Numbered from the stretch's first letter, positions 1-46,327 are shown. The stretch: 46,327 nucleotides of DNA from a virus (IMGVR_UViG_3300020152_000031:1-46327); one strand, 5' to 3'. Notes: generated by a model from the letters alone, not told the origin. Numbers and translations are program-made.

Positions 1-127
1 CCCACGTTCATAGGCTCAATGTGGGTACGAAGTGTCTGACCCATCCACTGACGGCTATCTTCACCGAACGCCTCTATGAGCGCGTTGATGGTTGGCTTGT
101 TGATGCGCACGTTGAGAGGCTCCGCAA
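1..127. repeat. Terminal direct repeat, copy A. It is identical to 46201-46327, either a circular-assembly overlap or a short terminal redundancy. The unique length is 46200 bp.
   Basis: Both ends were compared base by base. cccacgttcataggctcaatgtgg...gttgagaggctccgcaa is present at both termini. Confidence 0.95.
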
Positions 128-38575: not shown

Positions 38576-38752
38576 GCAGTCCTCCCTTGCTATTCCTATT
38601 TTAGTGTAACTCCTTGTTTGTCGCGTGTGATTCTCCACGGTAAAAACCCAGAGCCAGAAGCTCCTCGTCGGTGTGCTCGCATATCCACATCTGCACGTAC
38701 CTTCCAGTTACGAAGTGCCCCTTCTCACATTCGTTGTATGTGTGAGCCACGG

Positions 38753-38820
38753 CACCCCGCCTAGGAATTGAACCTAGCAAGCTCGGTTTTGGAGACCAAG
38801 CCGTACCCAGTACGCGAGGT
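38753..38820 (-). tRNA. tRNA-Trp(CCA)-like element with a truncated D-arm
   Basis: Acceptor ACCTCGC/GCGGGGT, anticodon arm TTGGT-CTCCAAA-ACCGA, and T-arm CTAGG-TTCAATT-CCTAG. Only 14 nt lie between the acceptor and anticodon stems, so the total is 68 nt. Confidence 0.45.
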
Positions 38821-38821
38821 T

Positions 38822-38896
38822 TGGCAGCCACGGCAGGATTCGGACCTGCGACCCTCCGGGTAACAACCGGGCGCTCTACCGCTGAGCTACATGGCT
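38822..38896 (-). tRNA. tRNA-Asn(GTT) with an encoded CCA
   Basis: Cloverleaf folded by hand: AGCCATG TA GCTC-AGCGGTA-GAGC G CCCGG-TTGTTAC-CCGGA GGGTC GCAGG-TCCGAAT-CCTGC CGTGGCT G CCA. Confidence 0.8.
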
Positions 38897-39061
38897 ATAT
38901 TACGAAAGTAACTATCCCGTTAGGGAGACTGAATCGCTTGGCGGAGCCTATACACCACGCGTCCGTGATGGAAGATACCAACGATTCAGTTCCCTAGGCG
39001 CAGTGTTTCCACACTCCAGGGGAGAATTACTCCCCCTAACGAGACAGTACTTGTATTCTTG
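38897..39061 (-). ncRNA. structured spacer RNA of unknown function between the tmRNA and tRNA-Asn
   Basis: There is a long imperfect stem TAGGGAACTGAATCGTTGG / CCAAGCGATTCAGTCTCCCTA and an inner hairpin CATCAC-ggacgc-GTGGTG. A 5' hairpin GGGGAG-taatt-CTCCCC can alternatively pair with CTCCCTAACG (as CGTTAGGGGGAG). Confidence 0.35.
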
Positions 39062-39425
39062 TGGACCTGGGGGGAATCGAACCCCCGTCCCAACACCAGC
39101 CCTACAACCACTCTACATAGCATATCTGACGTACCGCGTCAGCTCGTGTTGCTTGCCGAGCAAGCTGCCCTGCCCATCGTTTGACGATGAAGGCGGGCGG
39201 GTACACCTCCACCAACTGCTAGTGATGCCGCAGTCTGGGATACCAGCAGTATCTGTCCCAGGCCACGCCGTTAGGCTCGCGCGAAAGCAGGGGTTCCGAG
39301 GGAACCAACTGTCGCGAAGAACGGAGAGACGATGCTCTTTGCGTTTGTTTGTGCGACCATCTGTATGTCGCCTCAGTAGCTATGCAGGCTGTAAGGTTCT
39401 AGTGAGGTCAAAGCCAGTCAGGCCC
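39062..39425 (-). ncRNA. ssrA: tmRNA (SsrA)
   Basis: The 5' end GGGCCTGACTGGCTTTGAC pairs with the 3' end CAGGTCC-A, including a G3:U70 wobble. The T-arm is GGGGG-TTCGATT-CCCCC. The candidate tag ORF runs from GCA (39354) after GUC to TAA (39273-39271) and reads AQTNAKSIVSPFFATVGSLGTPAFARA. Confidence 0.8.
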
Positions 39426-39426
39426 G

Positions 39427-39498
39427 TTGCGCAGACCGGAATCGAACCGGTTATCTCCTGGTTATGAGCCAGGCGAGTTACCATCCCTCACCCGCGCT
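39427..39498 (-). tRNA. tRNA-Met(CAT) with initiator-like features
   Basis: AGCGCGG GT GAGG-GATGGTA-ACTC G CCTGG-CTCATAA-CCAGG AGATA ACCGG-TTCGATT-CCGGT CTGCGCA A. It has an A1:A72 mismatch, an A11:U24 pair, and G30-C40 / G31-C39 pairs. Confidence 0.75.
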
Positions 39499-39536
39499 TT
39501 TTTTAGTATACCATCGCACTTTTTACGTTATCCACA
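39499..39536 (-). promoter_or_regulatory. internal promoter candidate for the tRNA-Met / tmRNA transcript (TATACT at 39505-39510, 6 nt before the tRNA 5' end), with an exact box at 39528-39536 in the opposite orientation
   Basis: The minus strand reads TGTGGATAAC gtaaaaagtgcgatgg TATACT aaaaaa followed by the tRNA. Confidence 0.4.
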
Positions 39537-39540
39537 TCTG

Positions 39541-39611
39541 CTGGGACGCAGGGATTCGGACCCCGATTCAGCGGTCCAGAACCGCTTGTCCTACCATTAG
39601 ACGACATCCCA
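39541..39611 (-). tRNA. tRNA-Gln(CTG)
   Basis: TGGGATG TC GTCT-AATGGTA-GGAC A AGCGG-TTCTGGA-CCGCT GAAT CGGGG-TCCGAAT-CCCTG CGTCCCA G. It has a U1:A72 pair, as in bacterial tRNA-Gln. Confidence 0.8.
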
Positions 39612-39615
39612 ATAT

Positions 39616-40011
39616 CTATCGCAGCAACTCGTTGTGCATGCGTGCGACAATTCTATACACATCTCGTGCTTCTTCAAGCGACCGTAGTTCACCTGTGTGG
39701 TACTCATGCCCGAGCTCACGACTGATACGAGCGTATGCCTTCCCGCGTGGCATCCGTCCTGATTCCCACAATGGGTCTAGGAGCGCGTGTATTGCCTTGC
39801 GTGCCTTTAGAAGTTCTGGAGTGGCGATACACCCTAGCGGCCGTGTAGGCTTGCTTGTCTTCCAGTGGCACCCGACATAATTGCCGCATCCATCGCACCT
39901 CCAAAACGGAATGTCATAGAGGTCTGGCCTGTGCGGGTATCGTTCCTTGCCGTTTGTCAGTCGTGCAGAGACGGTAGTGTTGCACCCAACGCAGTAGATA
40001 TCTCTCGTCAT
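39616..40011 (-). CDS. DUF3268-like zinc-finger protein
   Basis: YCVGCNTTVSARLTNGKERYPHRPDLYDIPFWRCDGCGNYVGCH...PLGCIATPELLKARKAIHALLDPLW matches the common phage Zn-finger family pattern. Confidence 0.6.
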   Translation of the reverse strand: MTRDIYCVGCNTTVSARLTNGKERYPHRPDLYDIPFWRCDGCGNYVGCHWKTSKPTRPLGCIATPELLKARKAIHALLDPLWESGRMPRGKAYARISRELGHEYHTGELRSLEEARDVYRIVARMHNELLR

Positions 40012-40700: not shown

Positions 40701-41120
40701 CTAGCTTCCATTAGTTGACTGAGGACGAGGTGCCGGTGCTGGCGCTTGGTAACGTGGTGCCTCTTGAACACGCACGGTACCGTTGGGGTACGCGCGTGCT
40801 GGCATGTTCTGCACACCTCCGTGGTAGCTCACCTCTGCCATGAGGTGGGCCTTGCGACGGTTATGGTAAAGCTCAAGTTCGGTCTCAATTGCCTCCATCA
40901 GACACTGCTTAGAGCGGTCACTCTCCCAGCAGAATGTCATCTCAGAATCAGCTCGAGGGGTGATGTGGACGTAATAGCGTCGCTGCGTATCCTCGTCTTT
41001 GAGCTGAAGGGTTATCTGGCCTTTTATCTGGACGTAGTTCTCGCTCTTGTATGAGCCTCGGTCCTGACCAAACAACACCCTGTGACAATTATCGCACCCG
41101 TATACTTGTACTTTTCCCAT
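40701..41120 (-). CDS. Cys-motif protein (CDNC...C...C), a paralog of 45360..45596
   Basis: GCDNCHRVL...YVQIKGQITLQ...TFCWESDRSKQCLMEAI, followed by a P/A/Q-rich tail. Confidence 0.55.
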   Translation of the reverse strand: MGKVQVYGCDNCHRVLFGQDRGSYKSENYVQIKGQITLQLKDEDTQRRYYVHITPRADSEMTFCWESDRSKQCLMEAIETELELYHNRRKAHLMAEVSYHGGVQNMPARAYPNGTVRVQEAPRYQAPAPAPRPQSTNGS

Positions 41121-41294: not shown

Positions 41295-41300
41295 ATATCT

Positions 41301-41348
41301 ATATTATCATTGGTAAACAAGTTATACAAGTTATCCTTCTGTGGATTC
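41301..41348 (-). promoter_or_regulatory. internal promoter for the RHH gene: degenerate box GAATCCACA (41340-41348), TTGTAT (41324-41329), N17, TAATAT (41301-41306), N6, ATG
   Basis: Counted directly. The arrangement is leaderless. Confidence 0.55.
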
Positions 41349-41768
41349 CTCGCGGAACTGATAGAGCTTGTCAGGCTCTGGCACGTCGATACCGAGCTCA
41401 GCAGCCTCTACGATGACATTTGTGATGAACTCTGCCATCTCGTTGGTGCTCATGTCGGCAGTCGATTTGAGGGTAGTGATTTCCCCTCCCCTCCACTGCT
41501 TGCGCTCCCGTAGGAACTTCGACTTGAATATCTCGTGGAGCTCTTCTGGCGCGTGCCCGGTGTGGTCGCTGATGTACGGATACACTACACCCCATAGGTA
41601 TCCGAGCTGCTCCTGGCTCTTGCTGCGCTTCTTGCGTTCGATGGTGACCACCACGTCGCAGTCTGCAAAGAGCTGCATCATCCCCCGGAACCAGCGCGGA
41701 TTTGCAAGCTCGAGCTTGCCGTCCTTCAGTTGTCCGTAGTGTACGAGGCGTTCAAACTTACGTGCCAT
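41331..41768 (-). CDS. NinB/Orf-like recombination mediator (putative)
   Basis: VVVTIERKKRSKSQEQLGYLWGVV...LKSTADMSTNEMAEFITNVIVEAAELGIDVPEP parallels lambda NinB (VVTIQERNRSLDQNRKLWA...STSRMRVGEFAELLELIQAFG). Confidence 0.45.
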   Translation of the reverse strand: MARKFERLVHYGQLKDGKLELANPRWFRGMMQLFADCDVVVTIERKKRSKSQEQLGYLWGVVYPYISDHTGHAPEELHEIFKSKFLRERKQWRGGEITTLKSTADMSTNEMAEFITNVIVEAAELGIDVPEPDKLYQFREESTEG

Positions 41769-41769
41769 G

Positions 41770-42255
41770 TTAGGAGAATGAGATACCTAGCACTGAGACT
41801 GCCATACCAATTATGGCTGCAAAGACAACGACCTCGAGGAGCGGTAGCGAAGACCAGCGAAAACGAGCACGCGGGTCCTTCTCTATCGTCTGAATGATAG
41901 CGAGGGATGCGATGACTGCCGCATACGGTCCCTTCCGGTGAGCCTGTGTGAAGTCGTCGGCGTACTCACCCAGACACAGCATGCGCCAGCGGTCGGCACG
42001 CAACGCGTTCCACCTCACCATAGCAGGATGCCGCAAGAGCGTTTCATGCGCGTGACGCAATTGCATCTCCCATGGGTTGTCGTAATCGAGCTTCACCTCA
42101 ATTTGAGGCAGTGGGAACAATGACTTGTGGTGCCTGAGGCCCTTCTTGGTGACGAAACGAATCCCGTCATGGGTCAGCACCGCGTTGTCTACTCCCTTGA
42201 GTTTGAGGATGCGAGGGAGGTCAAGCCGCATCTGTTGTTCAGTCCAGTAAGCCAT
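41770..42255 (-). CDS. E2-like (UBC-like) Cys-domain protein with a C-terminal TM anchor, a paralog of the core of 43977..44942
   Basis: HPAMVRWNALRADRWRMLCLGEYADDF aligns without gaps to HLNAHWGCNGDAFEWDDLCLGGYADGF. The C-terminal LLEVVVFAAIIGMAVSVLGI is hydrophobic. Confidence 0.4.
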   Translation of the reverse strand: MAYWTEQQMRLDLPRILKLKGVDNAVLTHDGIRFVTKKGLRHHKSLFPLPQIEVKLDYDNPWEMQLRHAHETLLRHPAMVRWNALRADRWRMLCLGEYADDFTQAHRKGPYAAVIASLAIIQTIEKDPRARFRWSSLPLLEVVVFAAIIGMAVSVLGISFS

Positions 42256-42258
42256 AAG

Positions 42259-42921
42259 CTAATTCTCTTTGATGAATATGCTGGTTGCAGCATCGTAAAT
42301 AATGCGGCTCGGGATAGAGCGGTTCTGCATCAGAATCTTCTTGACGTTGTTCGCCATGAGACCTGCACAGATGTTTGCAGTGTACGCCGTGAAGCGTGCG
42401 CCGCACGGGTCCTCATCCCCAGCCGGTGGAATCTGAGCAAGCCATGCCTCTGCGTTAGGGAAGTAATACACCTCCACCTGCTCTGCGCCCACGCGCCCAT
42501 CCACAATCGGCACTTCTATGCCTTTCTCAATAAGAAGCTCTGCAATCGCGCGGCGTGCATCCAGGCTATCAACTGCCGACACGATGATGTCGTACGTGCT
42601 GCCCTCCTTGAGCTCAAACATTTCAGCGTAGACCGCGTGTGCGTTGTCAGGCTGAATGTGTAAGAGTTGGTCGAGCACCGCATCTACCTTGTTACGTCCG
42701 ATGTCAGATGCGCCATAGGTCTGTGTTGCGAGGTTATGCTCCTCGACCGTGTCGTGGTCGAAAAGTGTCATGGGTACCTGCATGCGTGCCAAGGTGTGTG
42801 CAAGGTGGGAACCGATGGTTCCGACACCTACCACTGCGACCTTCTTGTTCTGGTACTGTGACGGGTCGTAAATCATTGTGTGGCGCATGCCGTTGAGAGG
42901 TTTGACGAGAGAAGTAGACAT
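42259..42921 (-). CDS. ThiF/MoeB/E1-like adenylating (ubiquitin-activating-like) enzyme
   Basis: Trimmed to the ATG with the conserved leader (aaacacaatATG; MSTSLVKPL...). The motifs are KKVAVVGVGTIGSHLA, LFDHDTVEEHNLATQ and VSAVDSLDARR. Confidence 0.75.
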   Translation of the reverse strand: MSTSLVKPLNGMRHTMIYDPSQYQNKKVAVVGVGTIGSHLAHTLARMQVPMTLFDHDTVEEHNLATQTYGASDIGRNKVDAVLDQLLHIQPDNAHAVYAEMFELKEGSTYDIIVSAVDSLDARRAIAELLIEKGIEVPIVDGRVGAEQVEVYYFPNAEAWLAQIPPAGDEDPCGARFTAYTANICAGLMANNVKKILMQNRSIPSRIIYDAATSIFIKEN

Positions 42922-42932
42922 ATTGTGTTTGG

Positions 42933-43958
42933 TTAGTTGATTCCGTAAGTAAGTTCTGTCAGGCGCGCCTGTGCATCGACGAGTTGCTCCTTTAGCCATG
43001 AGTACTCATCGTCATCAGTGGCGTTGGTCTGCTCGTAAATGCGCATCTGTTCAGTGATGCCTGCGATGTAGCGACGTAGCTCGTTTGGGTCTGACACGGC
43101 AGACAGGTCATACGTATCAACGATTACGTCGTCGTTTGCCTCGTCGCTTTCGTTTGCCGTGTCGTCGAGTTTTCCCATGCGTGAGAGCTCATCCCAAGTA
43201 ATGTTGTAGCTCTTGTACCCGCTCTGGTAGATGATGTAGGGGTCTCCGTCTTCATCCATCGCGACCACACCACCCATGTGCTTTATAGAGGTCAGTTTGT
43301 GCCCAGGAGGAACCTCAATAGAATCAAGGTCATACCCGCTGTAAGCGCCAAACCCAAGATTAGCCTGCGGCTGGTAGGAGCTGGGAGTGTAGCGAAAGCT
43401 CTTTTGCTCTACCTTTGCCTTCACCTCCTCGCGGATGTCATCAGGAATGATGAGCGGCTTATCTTCTTCCTCCACCTCGCGATGACACGTAGGACAGAGC
43501 TCTGGCTCCGGCTCCTCGACCACGATTTCCATATCCTCGTGCGTAAGACGGAACGGGCGGTACGTATCCATACGAGCCTCGCGGTCGCGCCTCTTGTTGA
43601 CCACGAGCGACACAAGCCAGTCGAACTCGTCAGAGCCGTCGATGGTGCCGGTGTCAGTGCCAGAGAAGAACGCCTGCATGTCGTTGTGCGAGTGCCACCA
43701 GAGACGCCACTTGGAAGGAGACTTGCCCGCTTTGATAAGGTCCATCTGGAACTTTGCGAGTGCCTCACTCGAGAGGTCTGCGGTACCGCCGGTCACCTTC
43801 TGTTCGTAGATGGCAATTTCCGTGACGGTTATCTCGCCGGTCTCCTGGTTGTACTCGACGGCACCCATGCCAGCGATTTCAGAAGGGACAGACTGCACAT
43901 ACTGGTTGAGGCGCTCCTCGATGTGCTTTGGGATAATGAGTTTTGGTTTGGTAAGCAT
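42933..43958 (-). CDS. JAB/JAMM (MPN+) metalloprotease with a roughly 200-aa C-terminal extension
   Basis: PSEIAGMG is the upstream Glu motif, and WWHSHNDMQAFFSGTD matches HxHx7Sx2D. Confidence 0.8.
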   Translation of the reverse strand: MLTKPKLIIPKHIEERLNQYVQSVPSEIAGMGAVEYNQETGEITVTEIAIYEQKVTGGTADLSSEALAKFQMDLIKAGKSPSKWRLWWHSHNDMQAFFSGTDTGTIDGSDEFDWLVSLVVNKRRDREARMDTYRPFRLTHEDMEIVVEEPEPELCPTCHREVEEEDKPLIIPDDIREEVKAKVEQKSFRYTPSSYQPQANLGFGAYSGYDLDSIEVPPGHKLTSIKHMGGVVAMDEDGDPYIIYQSGYKSYNITWDELSRMGKLDDTANESDEANDDVIVDTYDLSAVSDPNELRRYIAGITEQMRIYEQTNATDDDEYSWLKEQLVDAQARLTELTYGIN

Positions 43959-43976
43959 AATTGTATTTGTTAGTGA

Positions 43977-44942
43977 TTAGAAGCTCTCGTCGTCGTAGCC
44001 GTAGTCCCCAGCGTCATCGCTGCGACCTTCTGACCCGTTGAAGAACATACTGACTGATATACCCAGCTTGGTAGCTACGTTGCGCACGTCCTGCTGGTAC
44101 TGCGTGCGTATCTCTTCGAGCGCATCGCGGTCGGCTACCTTCTTGAAGATGACCTCGTTGATAGGCGCAAAGCCAAGTGTCGATGCCCACTGGAGGCGGT
44201 GACGGTAGGCGCTTGCCCAGCCAGAGCTCTGGAGGTACAGCGAGACTGCGGACAGAAGTTCCGGGATGCCCTTGTTCGCCTCAGCGCGGAACCCGTCAGC
44301 GTACCCACCAAGGCAAAGGTCGTCCCACTCGAAAGCGTCGCCGTTGCAACCCCAGTGTGCGTTCAGATGATGGTACAGTCCGGTCTCAGCGATGAAGTCC
44401 TTGAACTGGTCCTCATCAGCAAAGCGGATAGCCACTGCTCGTACGTTCTTGTCGTACCACATATCCTTGTTGGCGATTCCCGCAAGGCTGATACGAATGA
44501 AGTACTGCGGCATCTCTGCGTATGTGACCTCATCGAGCATGAACTCCTGGCGGCGTCCGTCTGATGTGTACGCGATGCCAGAGTAGAAAGGTGTCTTGAG
44601 CTGACCCTTGCGCGTGCGTACGGTCATGTACTCGCCCTGCACCGCAACAGTGTCGACCCATGGCATGCTTGCCACTCGTTCGAGGACGGCGCGCATGTCA
44701 TCTGCGGTCATCTCTCCTTCGGGCATCTTTGCTAGTTGCTCAAGCAAAGTATTCTTGCGCTCGGTGTAGCGCACTATCTCCTTCTGCAACGCCTCGATGG
44801 TAAGGTCCGTGTTCGCAATATGCGTCTCCACGTCCTTGCGCTCGCCGGAACGGGTATCGAGATACGCGAGCATGTTCTTCACTGCTGTATCCGATACCTT
44901 GATGGCTGCCTGCTTCACTTCTTTACCGTCTGGTTTTCTCAT
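43977..44942 (-). CDS. coiled-coil N-terminus plus an E2-like (UBC-like) Cys domain (putative)
   Basis: Beta-rich YFIRISL / AVAIRFA is followed by YHHLNAHWG...DDLCLGGYADGF, which resembles an HPN-like flap plus the L-C-L of E2 active sites. Confidence 0.4.
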   Translation of the reverse strand: MRKPDGKEVKQAAIKVSDTAVKNMLAYLDTRSGERKDVETHIANTDLTIEALQKEIVRYTERKNTLLEQLAKMPEGEMTADDMRAVLERVASMPWVDTVAVQGEYMTVRTRKGQLKTPFYSGIAYTSDGRRQEFMLDEVTYAEMPQYFIRISLAGIANKDMWYDKNVRAVAIRFADEDQFKDFIAETGLYHHLNAHWGCNGDAFEWDDLCLGGYADGFRAEANKGIPELLSAVSLYLQSSGWASAYRHRLQWASTLGFAPINEVIFKKVADRDALEEIRTQYQQDVRNVATKLGISVSMFFNGSEGRSDDAGDYGYDDESF

Positions 44943-45011
44943 TGTGTTTTCCAGTTATGACTAATCGAACCGATGGGAGCCCCCACGAGGGTGAGAGCTC
45001 CTACGGGCCTA

Positions 45012-45248
45012 CTAGCGGCTACCTGCCTGCTTAGGCGTGGTGAGCGCGAGCACGTCACCGTCATCAAGGAGGTTGTCCATCTCAGCGCGTACGCCGGAGA
45101 CGAAAATCTCGGTGCGGTCAGAGACCGGAACACCTGCCTTCTCGAGAGCCTCACGAACGGTTGAATCAACCGGGAGCGAGACCTCAATTTCCTCGGAACC
45201 GAGGCGAGAGACGATAACCTTGATAGATGATTCTGGGTTGCTACGCAT
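45012..45248 (-). CDS. ThiS/MoaD-like beta-grasp ubiquitin-like protein (putative), ending ...PKQAGSR
   Basis: 78 aa. IKVIVSRLGSEEIEVSLPVDSTVREALEKAGVP...IFVSGVRAEMDNLLDDGDVLAL matches the ThiS/MoaD pattern. It is the first gene of the cassette. Confidence 0.5.
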   Translation of the reverse strand: MRSNPESSIKVIVSRLGSEEIEVSLPVDSTVREALEKAGVPVSDRTEIFVSGVRAEMDNLLDDGDVLALTTPKQAGSR

Positions 45249-45278
45249 AATTGAATTGTGTTAGCTGTCTAATGGGAT

Positions 45279-45288
45279 GTGATATCAC
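45279..45288. promoter_or_regulatory. perfect 10-bp palindrome GTGATATCAC in the leader of the Ubl cassette, an operator candidate
   Basis: Read directly. It lies about 13-22 nt downstream of the -10 hexamer. Confidence 0.4.
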
Positions 45289-45300
45289 TCACATACAGGT

Positions 45301-45359
45301 ATACTATCACAACTTGTATACCTTCACAAGCGGGGTGTGTATAACCTACCTGTGGATAA
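45301..45359 (-). promoter_or_regulatory. Promoter of the Ubl cassette: box TTATCCACA (45351-45359), N21, TTGTGA (45324-45329), N17, TAGTAT (45301-45306). A 1-mismatch box lies at 45336-45344.
   Basis: Counted directly. The box abuts the TAG stop of 45360..45596. Confidence 0.6.
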
Positions 45360-45596
45360 CTATTTCCACTGAAAGGGGAACTTCTGCCGCTGCTTATCAA
45401 GCCACTCTAGGAAGCATGGGCCGTTGCAGAAGACCACTTTCATGTTGTCGCGCTCAGTCAGATACCTGAACTGTAGGTCGCCGTTCTCGTGCTCCACCTG
45501 CTCGCTTATAGAGCCGTGCAAGTGAATCTGGATGAATGGCTGGTCTGACCGGTCGACGAGGCGCTCGCAGTTGTCGCAGCTTTTTCGGAAAGCCAT
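45360..45596 (-). CDS. Cys-motif protein (CDNC...C...C), a paralog of 40701..41120
   Basis: SCDNCERLV...FIQIHLHGSI...VFCNGPCFLEWL. Confidence 0.55.
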   Translation of the reverse strand: MAFRKSCDNCERLVDRSDQPFIQIHLHGSISEQVEHENGDLQFRYLTERDNMKVVFCNGPCFLEWLDKQRQKFPFQWK

Positions 45597-45599
45597 ACG

Positions 45600-45950
45600 C
45601 TACGAGCTCTTTACTTTGTCGAAGTACTCGACGGGAAGGAACACCTGCGTGTAATGGTCCTTGGTGTCCTGTTTGAAGTGCATGATGATGCCCTTCTCGC
45701 GCCATACACGATTCTTCACCATGTAGAGCACACCAAGTTCTATGTCGTGGATATACACGCTTCCATCCTCGGGGAGCTCATTGAAGAGAATGTCATAGTC
45801 CATTCCCCACGAGCCGTTGTCACCAACTTTGTGGTAGAGGTGTCGAGACTGCTTTACGCGTTTCTTGAACACCTTGCCTACCAGCATGCCGATGATGACC
45901 CCGTTCTTCAGGCGTACCTCGCGTCGGTCTGGTCGTGCTCGCGAGGCCAT
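45600..45950 (-). CDS. hypothetical protein
   Basis: 116-aa ORF. The junction TAGCGTATGGC is repeated at both of its ends. Confidence 0.55.
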   Translation of the reverse strand: MASRARPDRREVRLKNGVIIGMLVGKVFKKRVKQSRHLYHKVGDNGSWGMDYDILFNELPEDGSVYIHDIELGVLYMVKNRVWREKGIIMHFKQDTKDHYTQVFLPVEYFDKVKSS

Positions 45951-45953
45951 ACG

Positions 45954-46327
45954 CTAGAAGGGAATATCCGCAGGGTCGAGCTCCTCCTCCGGGTAATCTG
46001 AAGCCGGAAGCGGCGCGTCAAACTCTTCTGCTAATGGGTCACGTGCTGGTGTCGCGACACCTGCTGCGCCCGTTGCTGCTGCGGGTGTAGCTGCACCTGG
46101 CGTTGCCGAACCAATGCGACGGATAACGACGTACCCGCCCTCGTCCTCGCCCACCTCGTATCCCTCTGGAAGAAGGTACATAGCACGGACGCGACGACCG
46201 CCCACGTTCATAGGCTCAATGTGGGTACGAAGTGTCTGACCCATCCACTGACGGCTATCTTCACCGAACGCCTCTATGAGCGCGTTGATGGTTGGCTTGT
46301 TGATGCGCACGTTGAGAGGCTCCGCAA
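45954..46327 (-). CDS. SSB-like protein, 3' portion. The ORF runs off the window end and continues in 128-281.
   Basis: A Gly/Ala/Pro/Thr-rich linker (ATPGAATPAAATGAAGVATP) is followed by an acidic tail ending EEELDPADIPF, like the bacterial SSB C-terminal DDDIPF tip. Confidence 0.6.
   Translation of the reverse strand, partial: AEPLNVRINKPTINALIEAFGEDSRQWMGQTLRTHIEPMNVGGRRVRAMYLLPEGYEVGEDEGGYVVIRRIGSATPGAATPAAATGAAGVATPARDPLAEEFDAPLPASDYPEEELDPADIPF
46201..46327. repeat. Terminal direct repeat, copy B, identical to 1-127
   Basis: Base-by-base comparison with the window start. Confidence 0.95.

What the first reader, a model, noticed from the sequence alone, without database searches (positions are those of the whole stretch)
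41770..44942. Two paralogous Cys-domain proteins flank the JAB-E1 pair, and one is membrane-anchored
Seen in the sequence: HPAMVRWNALRADRWRMLCLGEYADDF (161-aa protein) and HLNAHWGCNGDAFEWDDLCLGGYADGF (321-aa protein) align over 27 residues without a gap. They are identical at 11 positions: H1, A12, W15, L18, C19, L20, G21, Y23, A24, D25 and F27. The 321-aa protein adds an N-terminal coiled coil. The 161-aa protein adds a C-terminal hydrophobic anchor (LLEVVVFAAIIGMAVSVLGI).

Inference: a duplicated catalytic-Cys module may direct the same Ubl chemistry to two locations or target classes, cytosol versus membrane. Alternatively the pair could act as an E2 / E2-variant combination.
Basis: partly seen in the sequence, partly recalled or inferred. 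Interest (0 to 1): 0.7.

Follow-up and report, generated by a model that had tools for sequence, protein, structure and literature searches.

The report
Phage ubiquitin-like cassette with two E2s
A phage genome carries a complete ubiquitin-like tagging kit (tag, activating enzyme, trimming protease) with two copies of a very diverged, so far unannotated "E2" carrier enzyme. One copy is soluble with a coiled coil and the other is anchored in the membrane by its tail, which suggests the virus tags proteins at two places in the cell.

Summary
The 161-aa and 321-aa proteins are true paralogues (BLASTP E 4e-5; Smith-Waterman 67 against 30.4±4.8 in 2000 shuffles). Their similarity covers about 130 residues, not only the 27-residue block. 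Neither protein matches Pfam, PHROGs, PADLOC or PDB sequences.

An exhaustive HMMER search found about 70 relatives with an invariant Cys and Gln. These include a distinct short subfamily that always ends in a hydrophobic tail. Profile-profile comparison links the family (97.5 %, E 5e-12) to the syntenic proteins of more distant Ubl-X-JAB-E1 operons. Those proteins carry an "HPHV..DG.PCLGN" motif and match canonical E2s (UBE2L3 E 3.5e-4; hhalign 96 %).

Both AlphaFold models (pLDDT 92 and 85) show the E2 order of elements. Foldseek gave no significant hit.

The cassette, on the minus strand of a circular 46-kb phage, contains:
- a Ubl ending ...QAG-SR;
- a coiled-coil E2;
- a JAMM protease;
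- a minimal UBA5-like E1 with the catalytic Cys conserved;
- a tail-anchored E2.

Sister phages carry one to three E2 paralogues. The most likely reading is a phage-encoded, Bil-like but distinct conjugation pathway with a cytosolic and a membrane-anchored E2. The chemistry and the targets are untested. I found no description of it in the literature I could search.

The parts
45012..45248 (-). Ubiquitin-like protein (78 aa), a beta-grasp candidate. Its C-terminus is ...TPKQAG-SR, so Gly76 is followed by two residues that would have to be trimmed.
   Evidence: Weak Pfam Ub-Mut7C hit (E 1.4e-4, 22.1 bits against cut-off 23). In related loci a small ORF at the same position ends in ...KQAG plus 0-2 residues. 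Two of them end exactly at ...KQAG, and more distant ones end in ...EGG plus 0-3 residues.
43977..44942 (-). Long E2-like paralogue (321 aa, 'L-type'). It has an N-terminal coiled coil (about residues 18-72, nt 44727-44891), an E2-like core (residues 78-270, nt 44133-44711), an invariant Cys210 (nt 44313-44315), a conserved His196-Trp197 and an acidic tail.
   Evidence: The AlphaFold model has pLDDT 92. C210 and Q238 are invariant in 70 family members.
44289..44369 (-).
42933..43958 (-). JAB/JAMM metalloprotease (341 aa). The motif H89-S-H91-x7-S99-x2-D102 is present, followed by a ~200-residue C-terminal extension of unknown function.
   Evidence: The JAMM motif is read directly from the translation. 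The same motif was found by pattern search in the syntenic gene of related loci. Weak Pfam Prok-JAB hit, E 1.1e-3. Weak PADLOC JAB hit, E 6e-3. Weak phmmer hits to Rpn11/PSMD14, E 2.6e-3.
42259..42921 (-). Minimal E1 (220 aa from the ATG at 42921; the longer 246-aa ORF would overlap the JAB gene). It is a single ThiF-type adenylation domain. Cys173 aligns with the catalytic Cys of UBA5.
   Evidence: Pfam ThiF E 1.2e-24. Gene call of 220 aa on the source contig. The best solved relative is UBA5, at E 1.5e-8 for the single sequence and 1e-12 for the profile. In that alignment ...DPCGARFT pairs with UBA5 ...GVCAASLP.
41770..42255 (-). Short E2-like paralogue (161 aa, 'S-type'). It has an E2-like core (residues 4-136, nt 41848-42246), His76-Pro77, a sole Cys94 (nt 41974-41976), Gln122 and a C-terminal tail anchor (residues 139-158, nt 41782-41841).
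   Evidence: The AlphaFold model has pLDDT 84.7 with the order a1-b1-b2-b3-b4-loop-Cys-a2-a3-a4-TM helix.
41950..42030 (-).
41331..41768 (-). NinB/Orf-type recombination mediator. This is the conserved downstream neighbour. It is probably not part of the conjugation machinery, but it marks the cassette as lying in the phage early/recombination module.
   Evidence: PHROG 72, E 2.2e-20. The window protein is alignable by eye with the 139-aa protein two genes after the S-type gene in L003. A 139-aa gene sits at the matching position in the P0062 locus.

Best explanation
The five co-oriented, tightly spaced genes at 41770-45248 form a phage-encoded ubiquitin-like conjugation cassette in the order Ubl - E2 - JAB - E1 - E2'. 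Both 'Cys-domain' proteins are extremely diverged members of the UBC/E2 superfamily.

Proposed mechanism, all steps inferred:
1. The JAMM protease trims the two residues after Gly76 of the Ubl. It could also reverse conjugation.
2. The UBA5-like minimal E1, probably a homodimer, adenylates the Gly and takes it onto Cys173.
3. The Ubl is passed by transthiolation to Cys210 of the coiled-coil E2 in the cytosol, or to Cys94 of the tail-anchored E2 held at the inner face of the cytoplasmic membrane.
4. No E3-like gene is evident. The E2s would therefore modify targets directly, with the coiled coil and the membrane anchor providing the targeting.

The long E2 is the core enzyme, since it is present in every related operon. 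The tail-anchored E2 is an old, conserved accessory paralogue that adds a membrane-proximal site of action, in the manner of eukaryotic Ubc6/UBE2J.

What is shown here: paralogy, family conservation, remote homology to E2s, conservation of the tail anchor, conservation of the operon, and phage origin. What is inferred: thioester chemistry, the order of transfer, the membrane orientation and the biological purpose (host takeover, counter-defence or exclusion of other phages).
For: Paralogy.

Family: an exhaustive HMMER search gave 70 members. Cys and Gln are invariant, and the His-Trp, Leu-Cys-Leu-Gly and Tyr positions are conserved.

E2 homology by a transitive chain:
- Family alignment A2 against the 'HPHV..DG.PCLGN' group A6: hhalign 97.5 %, E 4.9e-12, 171 columns, Cys on Cys (independent run).
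- Short subfamily alone against A6: 92.9 %, E 3.7e-7, with His76-Pro77 on the HP of HPH.
- A member of A6 (the L023 X protein) matches human UBE2L3 over the whole UBC domain, including HPN and the catalytic Cys, at E 3.5e-4. About thirty further E2 chain sequences (UBE2L3 constructs, UBE2A/B, UBE2K, UBE2L6, PEX4) follow it. It also matches Pfam UQ_con at E 7.5e-5.
- The A6 profile against the PDB has UBE2L3 at the top, E 0.017.
- Group B against six human E2s: 96 %, E 3.9e-9.

Structure: both models show a1, a beta-meander, a loop carrying the His, the Cys just before a2, then further helices. The weak Foldseek list for the short model is enriched in E2, UEV and what I take to be RWD folds: Atg10, Ufc1, Vps23 UEV, Csm1, CENP-O, Knl1.

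Context:
- The Ubl-X-JAB-E1 synteny holds in about 40 metagenomic loci, with X at the same position throughout.
- The E1 is closest to UBA5 and its catalytic Cys aligns.
- The Ubl C-terminal Gly is conserved and is followed by 0-3 residues.
- The JAMM motif is intact.
- No promoter-like or terminator-like sites lie inside the cassette, and the gaps between genes are 1-69 nt.

Tail anchor: all 4 short members have a C-terminal 19-mer with hydropathy of at least 2.04, against a maximum of 1.86 and a mean of 1.08 in the other (long) members. The gene sits directly after E1 in three lineages. Arg-rich residues precede the helix.

Phage origin: a circular 46,341-bp contig with a large terminase, RusA, HNH and NinB.
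Against: - Foldseek found no significant match for either model in the PDB or BFVD. The best E-values were 0.2 and 0.01 for the long model and 0.5 for the short one, with TM-scores of at most 0.45.
- The family has no direct hit to Pfam UQ_con or Prok-E2, to PADLOC or to PDB sequences.
- Direct hhalign of the family core against human E2s is not significant. The E2 assignment therefore rests on one intermediate group.
- The canonical HPN Asn is not conserved, and the His-to-Cys spacing is 14-18 residues instead of 10.
Only UBE2L3 is largely checked, against the alignments printed.
- No experiment bears on the thioester, the membrane insertion or the targets.
- Half of the closely related operons manage with one E2, so the second E2 is dispensable for the core reaction.
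Confidence: 0.6

Rival explanations
1. The short tail-anchored paralogue is not a second E2. It is a regulatory or adaptor subunit: an E2-variant partner of the long E2, a membrane receptor for the charged Ubl, or an E3-like acceptor that receives the Ubl from the long E2 and hands it to membrane targets.
For: The long type is present in every related operon, whereas the short type is present only in some. The two types keep different residues in the His motif: H-P-A/T in the short type and A/P-H-W in the long type. Sister phages carry further paralogues that have lost the His while keeping the Cys, so the family does produce non-standard copies. Eukaryotic E2/UEV pairs set a precedent (established knowledge).
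Against: The short subfamily keeps the invariant Cys as its only Cys, the His-Pro dipeptide and the invariant Gln. A pure variant would be expected to lose the Cys, as UEVs do. Nothing points to a heterodimer.
Confidence: 0.2
2. The family has an E2-derived fold but has been re-used for different Cys chemistry. One example would be a thiol peptidase or deconjugase that acts on host or rival Ubl conjugates such as Bil conjugates. Another would be a redox or zinc-binding role.
For: There is no significant structural or direct sequence match to any E2. The family-specific invariant Gln238 and the His-Trp motif are not E2 features. Relatives carry Cys-rich tails.
Against: The cassette has no other E2 candidate, yet it has an E1 with a catalytic Cys, a Ubl with a conserved C-terminal Gly and a JAB. 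These together need a carrier. The syntenic proteins in distant operons are recognisable E2s with HP[HN] and the Cys in register.
Confidence: 0.1
3. The cassette is a sulfur-carrier system of the ThiS/MoaD type with a JAB, as in CysO-Mec. It would make a thiocarboxylate for a small-molecule or nucleic-acid modification rather than tag proteins, and the Cys proteins would act as persulfide relays.
For: The E1 is a minimal ThiF/MoeB-type enzyme, and related genes in cultured phages are annotated 'thiamine biosynthesis protein'. JAB plus Ubl plus E1 operons for sulfur transfer are known (PMC1779556).
Against: The E1's nearest solved relative is the conjugation enzyme UBA5, with the catalytic Cys aligned. 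No rhodanese, cysteine desulfurase or biosynthetic gene is nearby. An E2-related protein is a constant member of the operon.
Confidence: 0.07
4. The resemblance is a chance or compositional match between unrelated ORFs.
For: Only 11 of 27 identities in the block as reported.
Against: None of 2000 shuffles reaches the observed score. The profile E-value is 1.6e-21. Indels and motifs are shared across 70 homologues. The predicted secondary-structure order is the same in both proteins.
Confidence: 0.01

Closest known systems
Bil (bacterial ISG15-like) systems, BilABCD, types I and II
   Same: The same four functions in the same gene order: Ubl, E2, JAB peptidase, E1. The Ubl has a conserved Gly followed by a few residues that the JAB removes. 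No E3 is present (PMC10557695; PMC11601596).
   Different: - The Bil E1 is a large IAD-AAD-CYS protein. Here the E1 is a 220-aa single adenylation domain closest to UBA5.
- The Bil E2 has its conserved His after the Cys (the CEHH motif). Here the His lies before the Cys, as in classical E2s.
- Only CBASS E1-E2 and JAB models appeared in the PADLOC output for this cassette. I did not check whether that library holds Bil models.
- Bil sits in bacterial defence islands. This cassette sits in a phage genome and has two E2 paralogues.
Canonical UBC-fold E2 enzymes (Pfam UQ_con), e.g. UBE2L3
   Same: The order of elements is a1, four-stranded meander, a loop with an HPx motif, the Cys just before a2, then helices. 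The more distant syntenic homologues match UBE2L3 and UQ_con with HP[HN] and the Cys aligned.
   Different: The window proteins themselves give no direct match. The loop between His and Cys is longer (14-18 residues against 10). The Asn of HPN is not conserved. An invariant Gln and a coiled coil or TM tail are added.
Tail-anchored eukaryotic E2s (Ubc6 / UBE2J1 / UBE2J2)
   Same: An E2 core followed by a single C-terminal transmembrane helix that holds the active site at the cytosolic face of a membrane (established knowledge). The 161-aa protein has exactly this layout.
   Different: There is no specific sequence relationship, so the resemblance is an analogy of architecture. The host membrane here would be the bacterial cytoplasmic membrane, and the insertion route is unknown.
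UFM1 pathway (UBA5 E1 with UFC1 E2) and Atg7/Atg10/Atg3, Cap2 of type II CBASS
   Same: The E1 is most similar to UBA5, then MoeB, PaaA, TcdA and Cap2 in the profile search. It keeps the catalytic Cys inside the adenylation domain rather than in a separate Cys domain. The weak structural neighbours of the short model include Ufc1 and Atg10.
   Different: The Foldseek matches are not significant. Cap2 is an E1-E2 fusion that conjugates a cyclase rather than a Ubl. No cyclase or effector gene is present.
Bub (6E / DUF6527) operons
   Same: A bacterial Ubl/E1/E2 operon family with diverged E2s (PMC11601596).
   Different: Bub works through Ser oxyesters and has a Ser-His protease, BubE. Here the conserved nucleophile is Cys and the peptidase is a JAMM enzyme.

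Membership tests
UBC/E2 superfamily | Sequence-profile match to a known E2 family (Pfam UQ_con or Prok-E2_A-E; solved E2 chains). | tested here: inconclusive
   There is no direct match for either window protein or for any of the 70 relatives. Direct hhalign against human E2s is not significant. The link is transitive only. The family matches group A6 at 97.5 % (E 4.9e-12) and the short type matches A6 at 92.9 %. Group A6/B matches E2s through UBE2L3 at E 3.5e-4, UQ_con at E 7.5e-5 (below the gathering score) and hhalign at 96 %.
UBC/E2 superfamily | The UBC fold: an N-terminal helix, a four-stranded antiparallel meander, and the active-site Cys in the loop before the crossover helix. | tested here: inconclusive
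   The secondary-structure order of both high-confidence models fits. The short protein is the minimal version, and the long one adds a beta-hairpin. Foldseek gave no significant match. The short model yielded only weak hits enriched for E2, UEV and RWD-type folds, with TM-scores of 0.3-0.45.
UBC/E2 superfamily | An invariant catalytic Cys. | tested here: met
   C210 / C94 is invariant in 70 of 70 sequences. It aligns with the Cys of group A6 and, through that group, with Cys86 of UBE2L3.
UBC/E2 superfamily | An HPN motif about 10 residues before the Cys. | tested here: not met
   A His is conserved (H196 in 64 of 66 long members; H76-P77 in 4 of 4 short members), but it lies 14-18 residues before the Cys and the Asn is not conserved. 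The window's long protein reads H192-L193-N194 in the hhalign register.
UBC/E2 superfamily | Functional partnership with an E1 and a Ubl, seen as gene linkage. | tested here: met
   The Ubl-X-JAB-E1 synteny holds in the window and in about 40 related loci.
Bil (BilABCD) | [quoted passage not shown] | tested here: not met
   The E1 is 220 aa with a single ThiF domain, and its Cys lies inside the adenylation domain as in UBA5.
Bil (BilABCD) | A BilB-type E2 with the conserved His C-terminal to the Cys (CEHH in type II). | tested here: not met
   The conserved His is N-terminal to the Cys, and no conserved His follows it.
Bil (BilABCD) | The gene order Ubl-E2-JAB-E1, and a Ubl with a C-terminal Gly plus a removable extension. 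| tested here: met
   The comparison with Bil uses.
Bil (BilABCD) | A chromosomal anti-phage defence function. | not testable with these tools
   The cassette lies in a phage genome. An E1-pattern scan of 185,579 species genomes found no relative. The function is unknown.
Type II CBASS Cap2/Cap3 | An E1-E2 fusion protein next to a CD-NTase and an effector. | tested here: not met
   The E1 domain resembles the Cap2 E1 (PADLOC E1-E2 models, E 2e-16). However, E1 and E2 are separate genes and no cyclase or effector is present.
Tail-anchored membrane protein | A single hydrophobic helix within about 25 residues of the C-terminus and no N-terminal signal. | tested here: met
   Residues 139-158 are hydrophobic, with a Kyte-Doolittle mean of 2.57 for residues 142-160. 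A helix is predicted at 139-156, and only 3 residues follow residue 158. The feature is conserved in 4 of 4 short-type proteins. Actual insertion was not tested.

The most novel reading that the evidence does not exclude
Tailed phages of soil and groundwater, and more distantly some cultured jumbo phages, carry their own complete ubiquitin-like conjugation pathway. It is built on a previously unrecognised E2 family that has diversified into up to three paralogues per genome. One of these is a catalytically active tail-anchored E2 that attaches the phage Ubl to membrane-associated targets. Those targets could be host envelope or defence proteins, incoming rival phage components, or conceivably phosphatidylethanolamine in an Atg8-like lipidation. 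This would be the first multi-E2, compartment-directed ubiquitin-like system outside eukaryotes and archaea, and it would be wielded by a virus.
Probability: 0.25. Interest if true: 0.9.

Novelty: new variant of a known kind. Interest (0 to 1): 0.72.

Why it matters
Bacterial ubiquitin-like conjugation (type II CBASS, Bil, Bub) is so far described as host defence with one E2 per system. Here a virus encodes the whole pathway, and several things are new.
- The E2 family is absent from Pfam, PHROGs and PADLOC.
- The E1 is minimal and UBA5-like.
- The E2 has been duplicated into a coiled-coil form and a membrane-anchored form. In eukaryotes that division of labour underlies ER-associated ubiquitination.

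If the chemistry holds, three questions become open. What do phages tag, and why: takeover, counter-defence against Bil-like systems, or exclusion of competitors? How is substrate choice achieved without an E3? How early did E2 diversification and membrane anchoring arise?

The family also gives sequence bridges between classical E2s and very diverged forms, which is useful for annotating viral dark matter. A related E2-like domain next to a related E1 in cultured Xanthomonas/Erwinia jumbo phages offers an experimental entry point.

Tried and rejected
- Word-indexed homology searches with each protein, and with the 70-sequence alignment, returned essentially only the queries. Only the exhaustive HMMER search found the family.
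- blastn of the locus and tblastn of the long protein against 50,697 phage records found nothing.
- A single-protein E1 scan of IMG/VR found nothing. The family alignment was too diverse for pattern-based locus finding. An E1-pattern scan of GTDB genomes found nothing.
- Foldseek of the long model against the PDB and BFVD, and of the short model against the PDB, gave no significant hit.
- A profile of the family against PDB sequences returned only coiled-coil noise.
- A Pfam scan of all 70 members found no E2 family.
- Direct hhalign of the family core against human E2s was not significant.
- Bacteroides phage crAss001 gp78 was tested as a possible member and is not significant (2 %, E 0.023).
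- Papain-like peptidase was considered and rejected. The order of conserved residues (His...Cys...Gln) does not fit Gln-Cys-His-Asn.
- Membership of Bil, CBASS or Bub was considered and rejected on E1 architecture, E2 motif and nucleophile (see Membership tests).
- Literature searches for a phage-encoded Ubl/E1/E2/JAB system found no description. Burroughs et al. 2008 on the E2 fold is not held.

Full report
**1. What is in the sequence**

On the minus strand, five ORFs follow each other with gaps of 1-69 nt:
- a 78-aa protein (45012-45248);
- the 321-aa protein (43977-44942);
- a 341-aa protein (42933-43958);
- a ThiF-type protein (42259-42921 from the ATG used by the gene call on the source contig, 220 aa);
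- the 161-aa protein (41770-42255).

A NinB/Orf recombination gene follows directly (41331-41768; PHROG 72, E 2e-20). A consensus scan finds no promoter-like or terminator-like site between 41200 and 45700. This is compatible with one transcription unit but proves nothing.

The window is a rotated copy of a 46,341-bp metagenomic contig (ENA ERZ27252484). I take the contig to be a circular phage genome because genes run across the window ends. It carries a large terminase, a small terminase, RusA, HNH and NinB, while most structural genes have no PHROG match. No integrase was seen among the precomputed Pfam hits of the non-structural region.

**2. Check of the observation**

The two strings are at residues 76-102 (short protein) and 192-218 (long protein).
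- BLASTP gives 26/80 identities at E 4e-5 for the single comparison.
- The Smith-Waterman score is 67, against 30.4 ± 4.8 (maximum 58) for 2000 shuffles.
- MAFFT aligns the whole short protein to residues ~79-265 of the long one, with three long-specific insertions.

The short protein has one Cys (C94), which is the shared one. The long protein has two, of which C210 is the shared one.

The tail of the short protein (residues 142-160) has a Kyte-Doolittle mean of 2.57. It is preceded by Arg-rich sequence and followed by almost nothing, which is the layout of a tail anchor. The long protein has no segment above 0.74.

**3. The family**

Word-indexed searches found only the queries. An exhaustive HMMER search with the pair alignment found 70 proteins at E ≤ 1e-3, of which 50 are at ≤ 1e-10.

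Most are 290-430 aa with an N-terminal coiled coil (L-type). Four are 161-198 aa (S-type: the window protein, P0062, P0063 and P0070).

Conservation in the 70-sequence alignment:
- C210 and Q238 are invariant.
- In the 66 other (long) members, H196 is His in 64 of 66, W197 is Trp in 61 of 66, L211 is Leu in 61 of 66, Y214 is Tyr in 59 of 66, and P145 and W252 are conserved in 66 of 66.

The S-type proteins share the same deletions, an invariant His-Pro 16-18 residues before the Cys, the Cys, the Gln and a hydrophobic C-terminal 19-mer. That 19-mer scores 2.04-2.57, against a maximum of 1.86 and a mean of 1.08 in the long members. The S-type is therefore an old, conserved subfamily and not a recent local duplicate.

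No member hits any Pfam E2 family, and the window proteins have no PHROG, PADLOC or PDB sequence match. A profile of the family against the PDB returns only coiled-coil proteins for the N-terminal part.

**4. Structure predictions**

With the family alignment, AlphaFold gives a confident model of the long protein (pLDDT 92, pTM 0.80):
- helices at 18-72;
- helix 80-91, then strands 96-102, 105-110, 116-125, 131-143, 147-152 and 170-174;
- a long loop carrying H196/W197;
- C210 immediately before helix 212-224, followed by further helices.

The short protein (pLDDT 84.7) shows helix 6-17, four strands (22-27, 31-36, 52-57, 64-68), a loop with H76, C94 just before helix 96-108, then helices 110-123 and 128-134 and the terminal helix 139-156.

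Element for element the two models correspond, apart from a long-specific hairpin. The order of elements is that of the UBC/E2 fold: α1, four-stranded meander, active-site loop, crossover helix, C-terminal helices.

Foldseek found nothing significant for either model. For the short model the weak list (E 0.5-5, TM up to 0.45) is nevertheless rich in E2-type folds: Atg10 (2lpu, 4gsk), Ufc1 (3evx) and the Vps23 UEV domain (3r3q), plus Csm1, CENP-O and Knl1, which I take to be RWD domains. I treat this as suggestive only.

**5. The operon elsewhere, and the bridge to E2s**

Contigs encoding relatives show the same cassette in other phages.
- L002: Ubl 82 aa, L-type 305, a 177-aa paralogue, JAB 339, E1 216.
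- L003: Ubl 81, L-type 388, a 210-aa paralogue, JAB 345, E1 217, S-type 163, then a 145-aa gene and the NinB-like 139-aa protein.
- The P0062 locus again has the S-type directly after the E1.
- L007, an IMG/VR contig, has only the L-type.

An E1-based scan of metagenome contigs returned 80 loci. A gene map of these shows a recurrent order. It starts with a small protein ending in Gly plus 0-3 residues, then X (300-650 aa), then a JAMM protease, then the E1.

HMM searches against all 3,377 ORFs of these loci found the family only at position X and at the extra paralogue positions. Iterating the profile pulled in, step by step, further proteins. Wherever the gene map covers the locus, these sit at position X of more distant loci. 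They share "HPHV..DG.PCLGN...FL.S.N..P...I..W".

Independent alignments of the two groups match by hhalign at 97.5 % probability (E 4.9e-12, 171 columns), with Cys on Cys. The four S-type proteins alone match at 92.9 % (E 3.7e-7), with His76-Pro77 on the His-Pro of HPH.

The distant group is recognisably E2:
- The L023 protein matches human UBE2L3 across the whole UBC domain at E 3.5e-4, with "HHPHVHNDEGRVCFGNISA" against "YHPNI-DEKGQVCLPVISA". About thirty further E2 chain sequences (other UBE2L3 constructs, UBE2A/B, UBE2K, UBE2L6, PEX4) follow in the list.
- It matches Pfam UQ_con at E 7.5e-5, which is below the gathering score.
- The group profile has UBE2L3 as its top PDB hit, at a marginal E of 0.017.
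- hhalign of the group against six human E2s gives 96 %, E 3.9e-9.

The direct comparison of the window's family with human E2s is not significant. The assignment is therefore transitive. It is strengthened by synteny, by the conserved Cys register and by the predicted topology.

**6. The other components**

*E1.* It matches Pfam ThiF at E 1e-24. Its nearest solved relative is UBA5, at E 1.5e-8 for the single sequence and 1e-12 for a three-sequence profile. In the profile search MoeB, PaaA, TcdA, Cap2, MccB, NAE1/UBA3 and ThiF follow. The invariant "DPCGARFT" Cys (C173) aligns with the Cys of UBA5 "GVCAASLP". From my own knowledge that residue is the catalytic Cys250.

*Protease.* The 341-aa protein has an intact JAMM motif (HSH-x7-S-x2-D) and weak Prok-JAB, PADLOC JAB and Rpn11 matches. 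It also has a ~200-residue extension of unknown function.

*Ubl.* The 78-aa protein weakly matches a ubiquitin-family Pfam model. Its C-terminus is conserved among close relatives as ...[TS][PAS]KQAG followed by 0-2 residues. Two relatives end exactly at the Gly. This points to Gly76 as the reactive end and to JAB trimming, as shown for type II BilA.

**7. Interpretation**

The best-supported reading is a phage-borne ubiquitin-like conjugation pathway. The L-type protein is the core E2, since it is present in every related operon. The S-type is an accessory, tail-anchored E2.

Among the eight distinct close loci with enough flank:
- four have only the L-type (L007, L008/L013, L011, L012);
- the window has L plus S;
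- L002 has L plus a middle paralogue;
- L003 has L, a middle paralogue and S;
- L009 has L plus two middle paralogues.

The middle paralogues keep the Cys and the Gln but lack the His. They are the better candidates for E2-variant-like roles.

It remains inference: nothing here shows thioester formation, membrane insertion or targets.

The register of the His is unsettled. However, the conserved His of the L-type is H196, which MAFFT pairs with the His-Pro of three of the four S-type proteins.

**8. Comparison with known systems**

The gene order and logic are those of Bil (Ubl-E2-JAB-E1, with a Gly-plus-extension Ubl). However, the E1 architecture (minimal UBA5-like rather than IAD-AAD-CYS), the E2 motif (His before the Cys rather than after it) and the genomic home (phage rather than defence island) all differ. 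PADLOC returned only CBASS E1-E2 and JAB models for the cassette.

It is not type II CBASS: there is no fusion and no cyclase. It is not Bub, which uses Ser oxyesters and a Ser protease.

Related E1 genes of about 30 % identity occur in cultured phages: crAss001-like Bacteroides phages, Flavobacterium phages and Xanthomonas/Erwinia jumbo phages. There they are annotated 'thiamine biosynthesis protein'.
- In Xanthomonas phage PhiXhv-12, the 892-aa protein just upstream of the E1 contains a coiled coil plus an E2-like domain ("IHPHM...LCLGSF"). It matches the family core HMM at E 3e-8.
- In crAss001 the synteny is similar: gp79 with a Ubl-like N-terminus, gp78, gp77 JAB and gp76 ThiF. However, gp78 is not significantly related.

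Seven literature searches found no description of a phage Ubl-E2-JAB-E1 cassette or of this E2 family. The library lacks many subscription papers, so prior description cannot be excluded.

**9. Verdict**

This is a new variant of a known kind: a phage-encoded ubiquitin-like conjugation cassette with an unannotated, highly diverged E2 family that has split into coiled-coil, His-less and tail-anchored paralogues. My confidence that the two proteins are E2 homologues is about 0.85. My confidence that both act as Ubl thioester carriers, with the short one directing modification to the membrane, is about 0.5-0.6.

Noticed in passing
window 38751-39611 (minus strand): A cluster of tRNA-Trp, tRNA-Asn, a tmRNA (39059-39425; Rfam RF00023, 56.4 bits against gathering score 47; the ARAGORN tag peptide ends ...AFARA), tRNA-Met and tRNA-Gln. 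This is a phage-borne tmRNA gene lying between the structural module and the early module.
   Followed up: partly
L002 8915-9448; L003 5672-6304; L009 4530-5372 and 5376-5939: Sister phages carry a third kind of paralogue ('middle' type, 177-280 aa) between the long E2 and the JAB gene. It keeps the Cys and the Gln but lacks the conserved His. L003 has three paralogues in one operon. The window has no such gene.
   Followed up: partly
L003 4549-5715, L007 4000-5082; alignment A6 (e.g. L045, L028, L040, L083): Long-type homologues in other phages end in acidic, Cys-rich tails (for example ...CSGDDCDDDGCDCRCHD). The more distant HPH-type E2s end in CxxC...CxxC motifs that look like a zinc ribbon. 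The window protein has an acidic tail (...DDAGDYGYDDESF) with no Cys.
   Followed up: no
L089 (Bacteroides phage crAss001, MH675552.1 76400-87062): The crAss001 genes gp79-gp76 have the same synteny. gp79 has a Ubl-like N-terminus (...KKIKSG) fused to a tail. gp78 (444 aa) carries 'GYMHSHV...PCTG'. gp77 is a JAMM protease. gp76 is a ThiF with a ~160-residue N-terminal extension. gp78 is not significantly related to the E2 profiles (hhalign 2 %, E 0.023).
   Followed up: partly
L090 2310-4988 and 5001-5684 (Xanthomonas phage PhiXhv-12, PV764601.1): A cultured 228-kb jumbo phage encodes an 892-aa protein with a coiled coil and an E2-like domain (residues 549-695, 'IHPHM...LCLGSF'; core HMM E 3e-8). 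It lies directly upstream of a related E1 annotated 'thiamine biosynthesis protein'. The E1 tblastn match is the same (30.1 % identity, E 2e-14) in two sister Xanthomonas phages and in phages Ep026 and Ep032. Only PhiXhv-12 was inspected. No JAMM motif was found in the 892-aa protein, and I did not identify a Ubl.
   Followed up: partly
window 42933-43958 (residues ~135-341 of the JAB protein): The JAMM protease carries a ~200-residue acidic C-terminal extension with no family match. The length of this extension varies widely among the related loci (JAB proteins of 216-420 aa).
   Followed up: no
window 9165-37881 (plus strand): Of the eight large plus-strand ORFs tested in the structural region, only the large terminase matched a named PHROG family (phrog_2). 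One more hit a family of unknown function, and the 723-, 1128-, 804-, 339-, 278- and 346-aa proteins had no match at E ≤ 1e-5. The phage is distant from catalogued ones. blastn of the cassette region (41300-46327) against 50,697 phage records found nothing.
   Followed up: partly
window 45360-45596, 40701-41120, 39616-40011 (minus strand): Several small proteins flanking the cassette contain paired CxxC motifs. Examples are the 78-aa 'CDNCERLV...FCNGPCF', the 139-aa 'GCDNCHRV' and the 131-aa 'CVGCN...CDGCGNYVGCH'. None has a family match. Whether any of them acts with the Ubl system, for example as a small zinc-binding adaptor, was not examined.
   Followed up: no
window 1-30 and 46300-46327; L001 8462-8989: On the source contig a 175-aa gene is called at the position where, in the window, only a 118-aa ORF (45954-46310) lies next to the window end. 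The gene therefore seems to run across the junction of the window ends. The contig (46,341 bp) is 14 bp longer than the window. Both points suggest a circular or terminally redundant genome.
   Followed up: no
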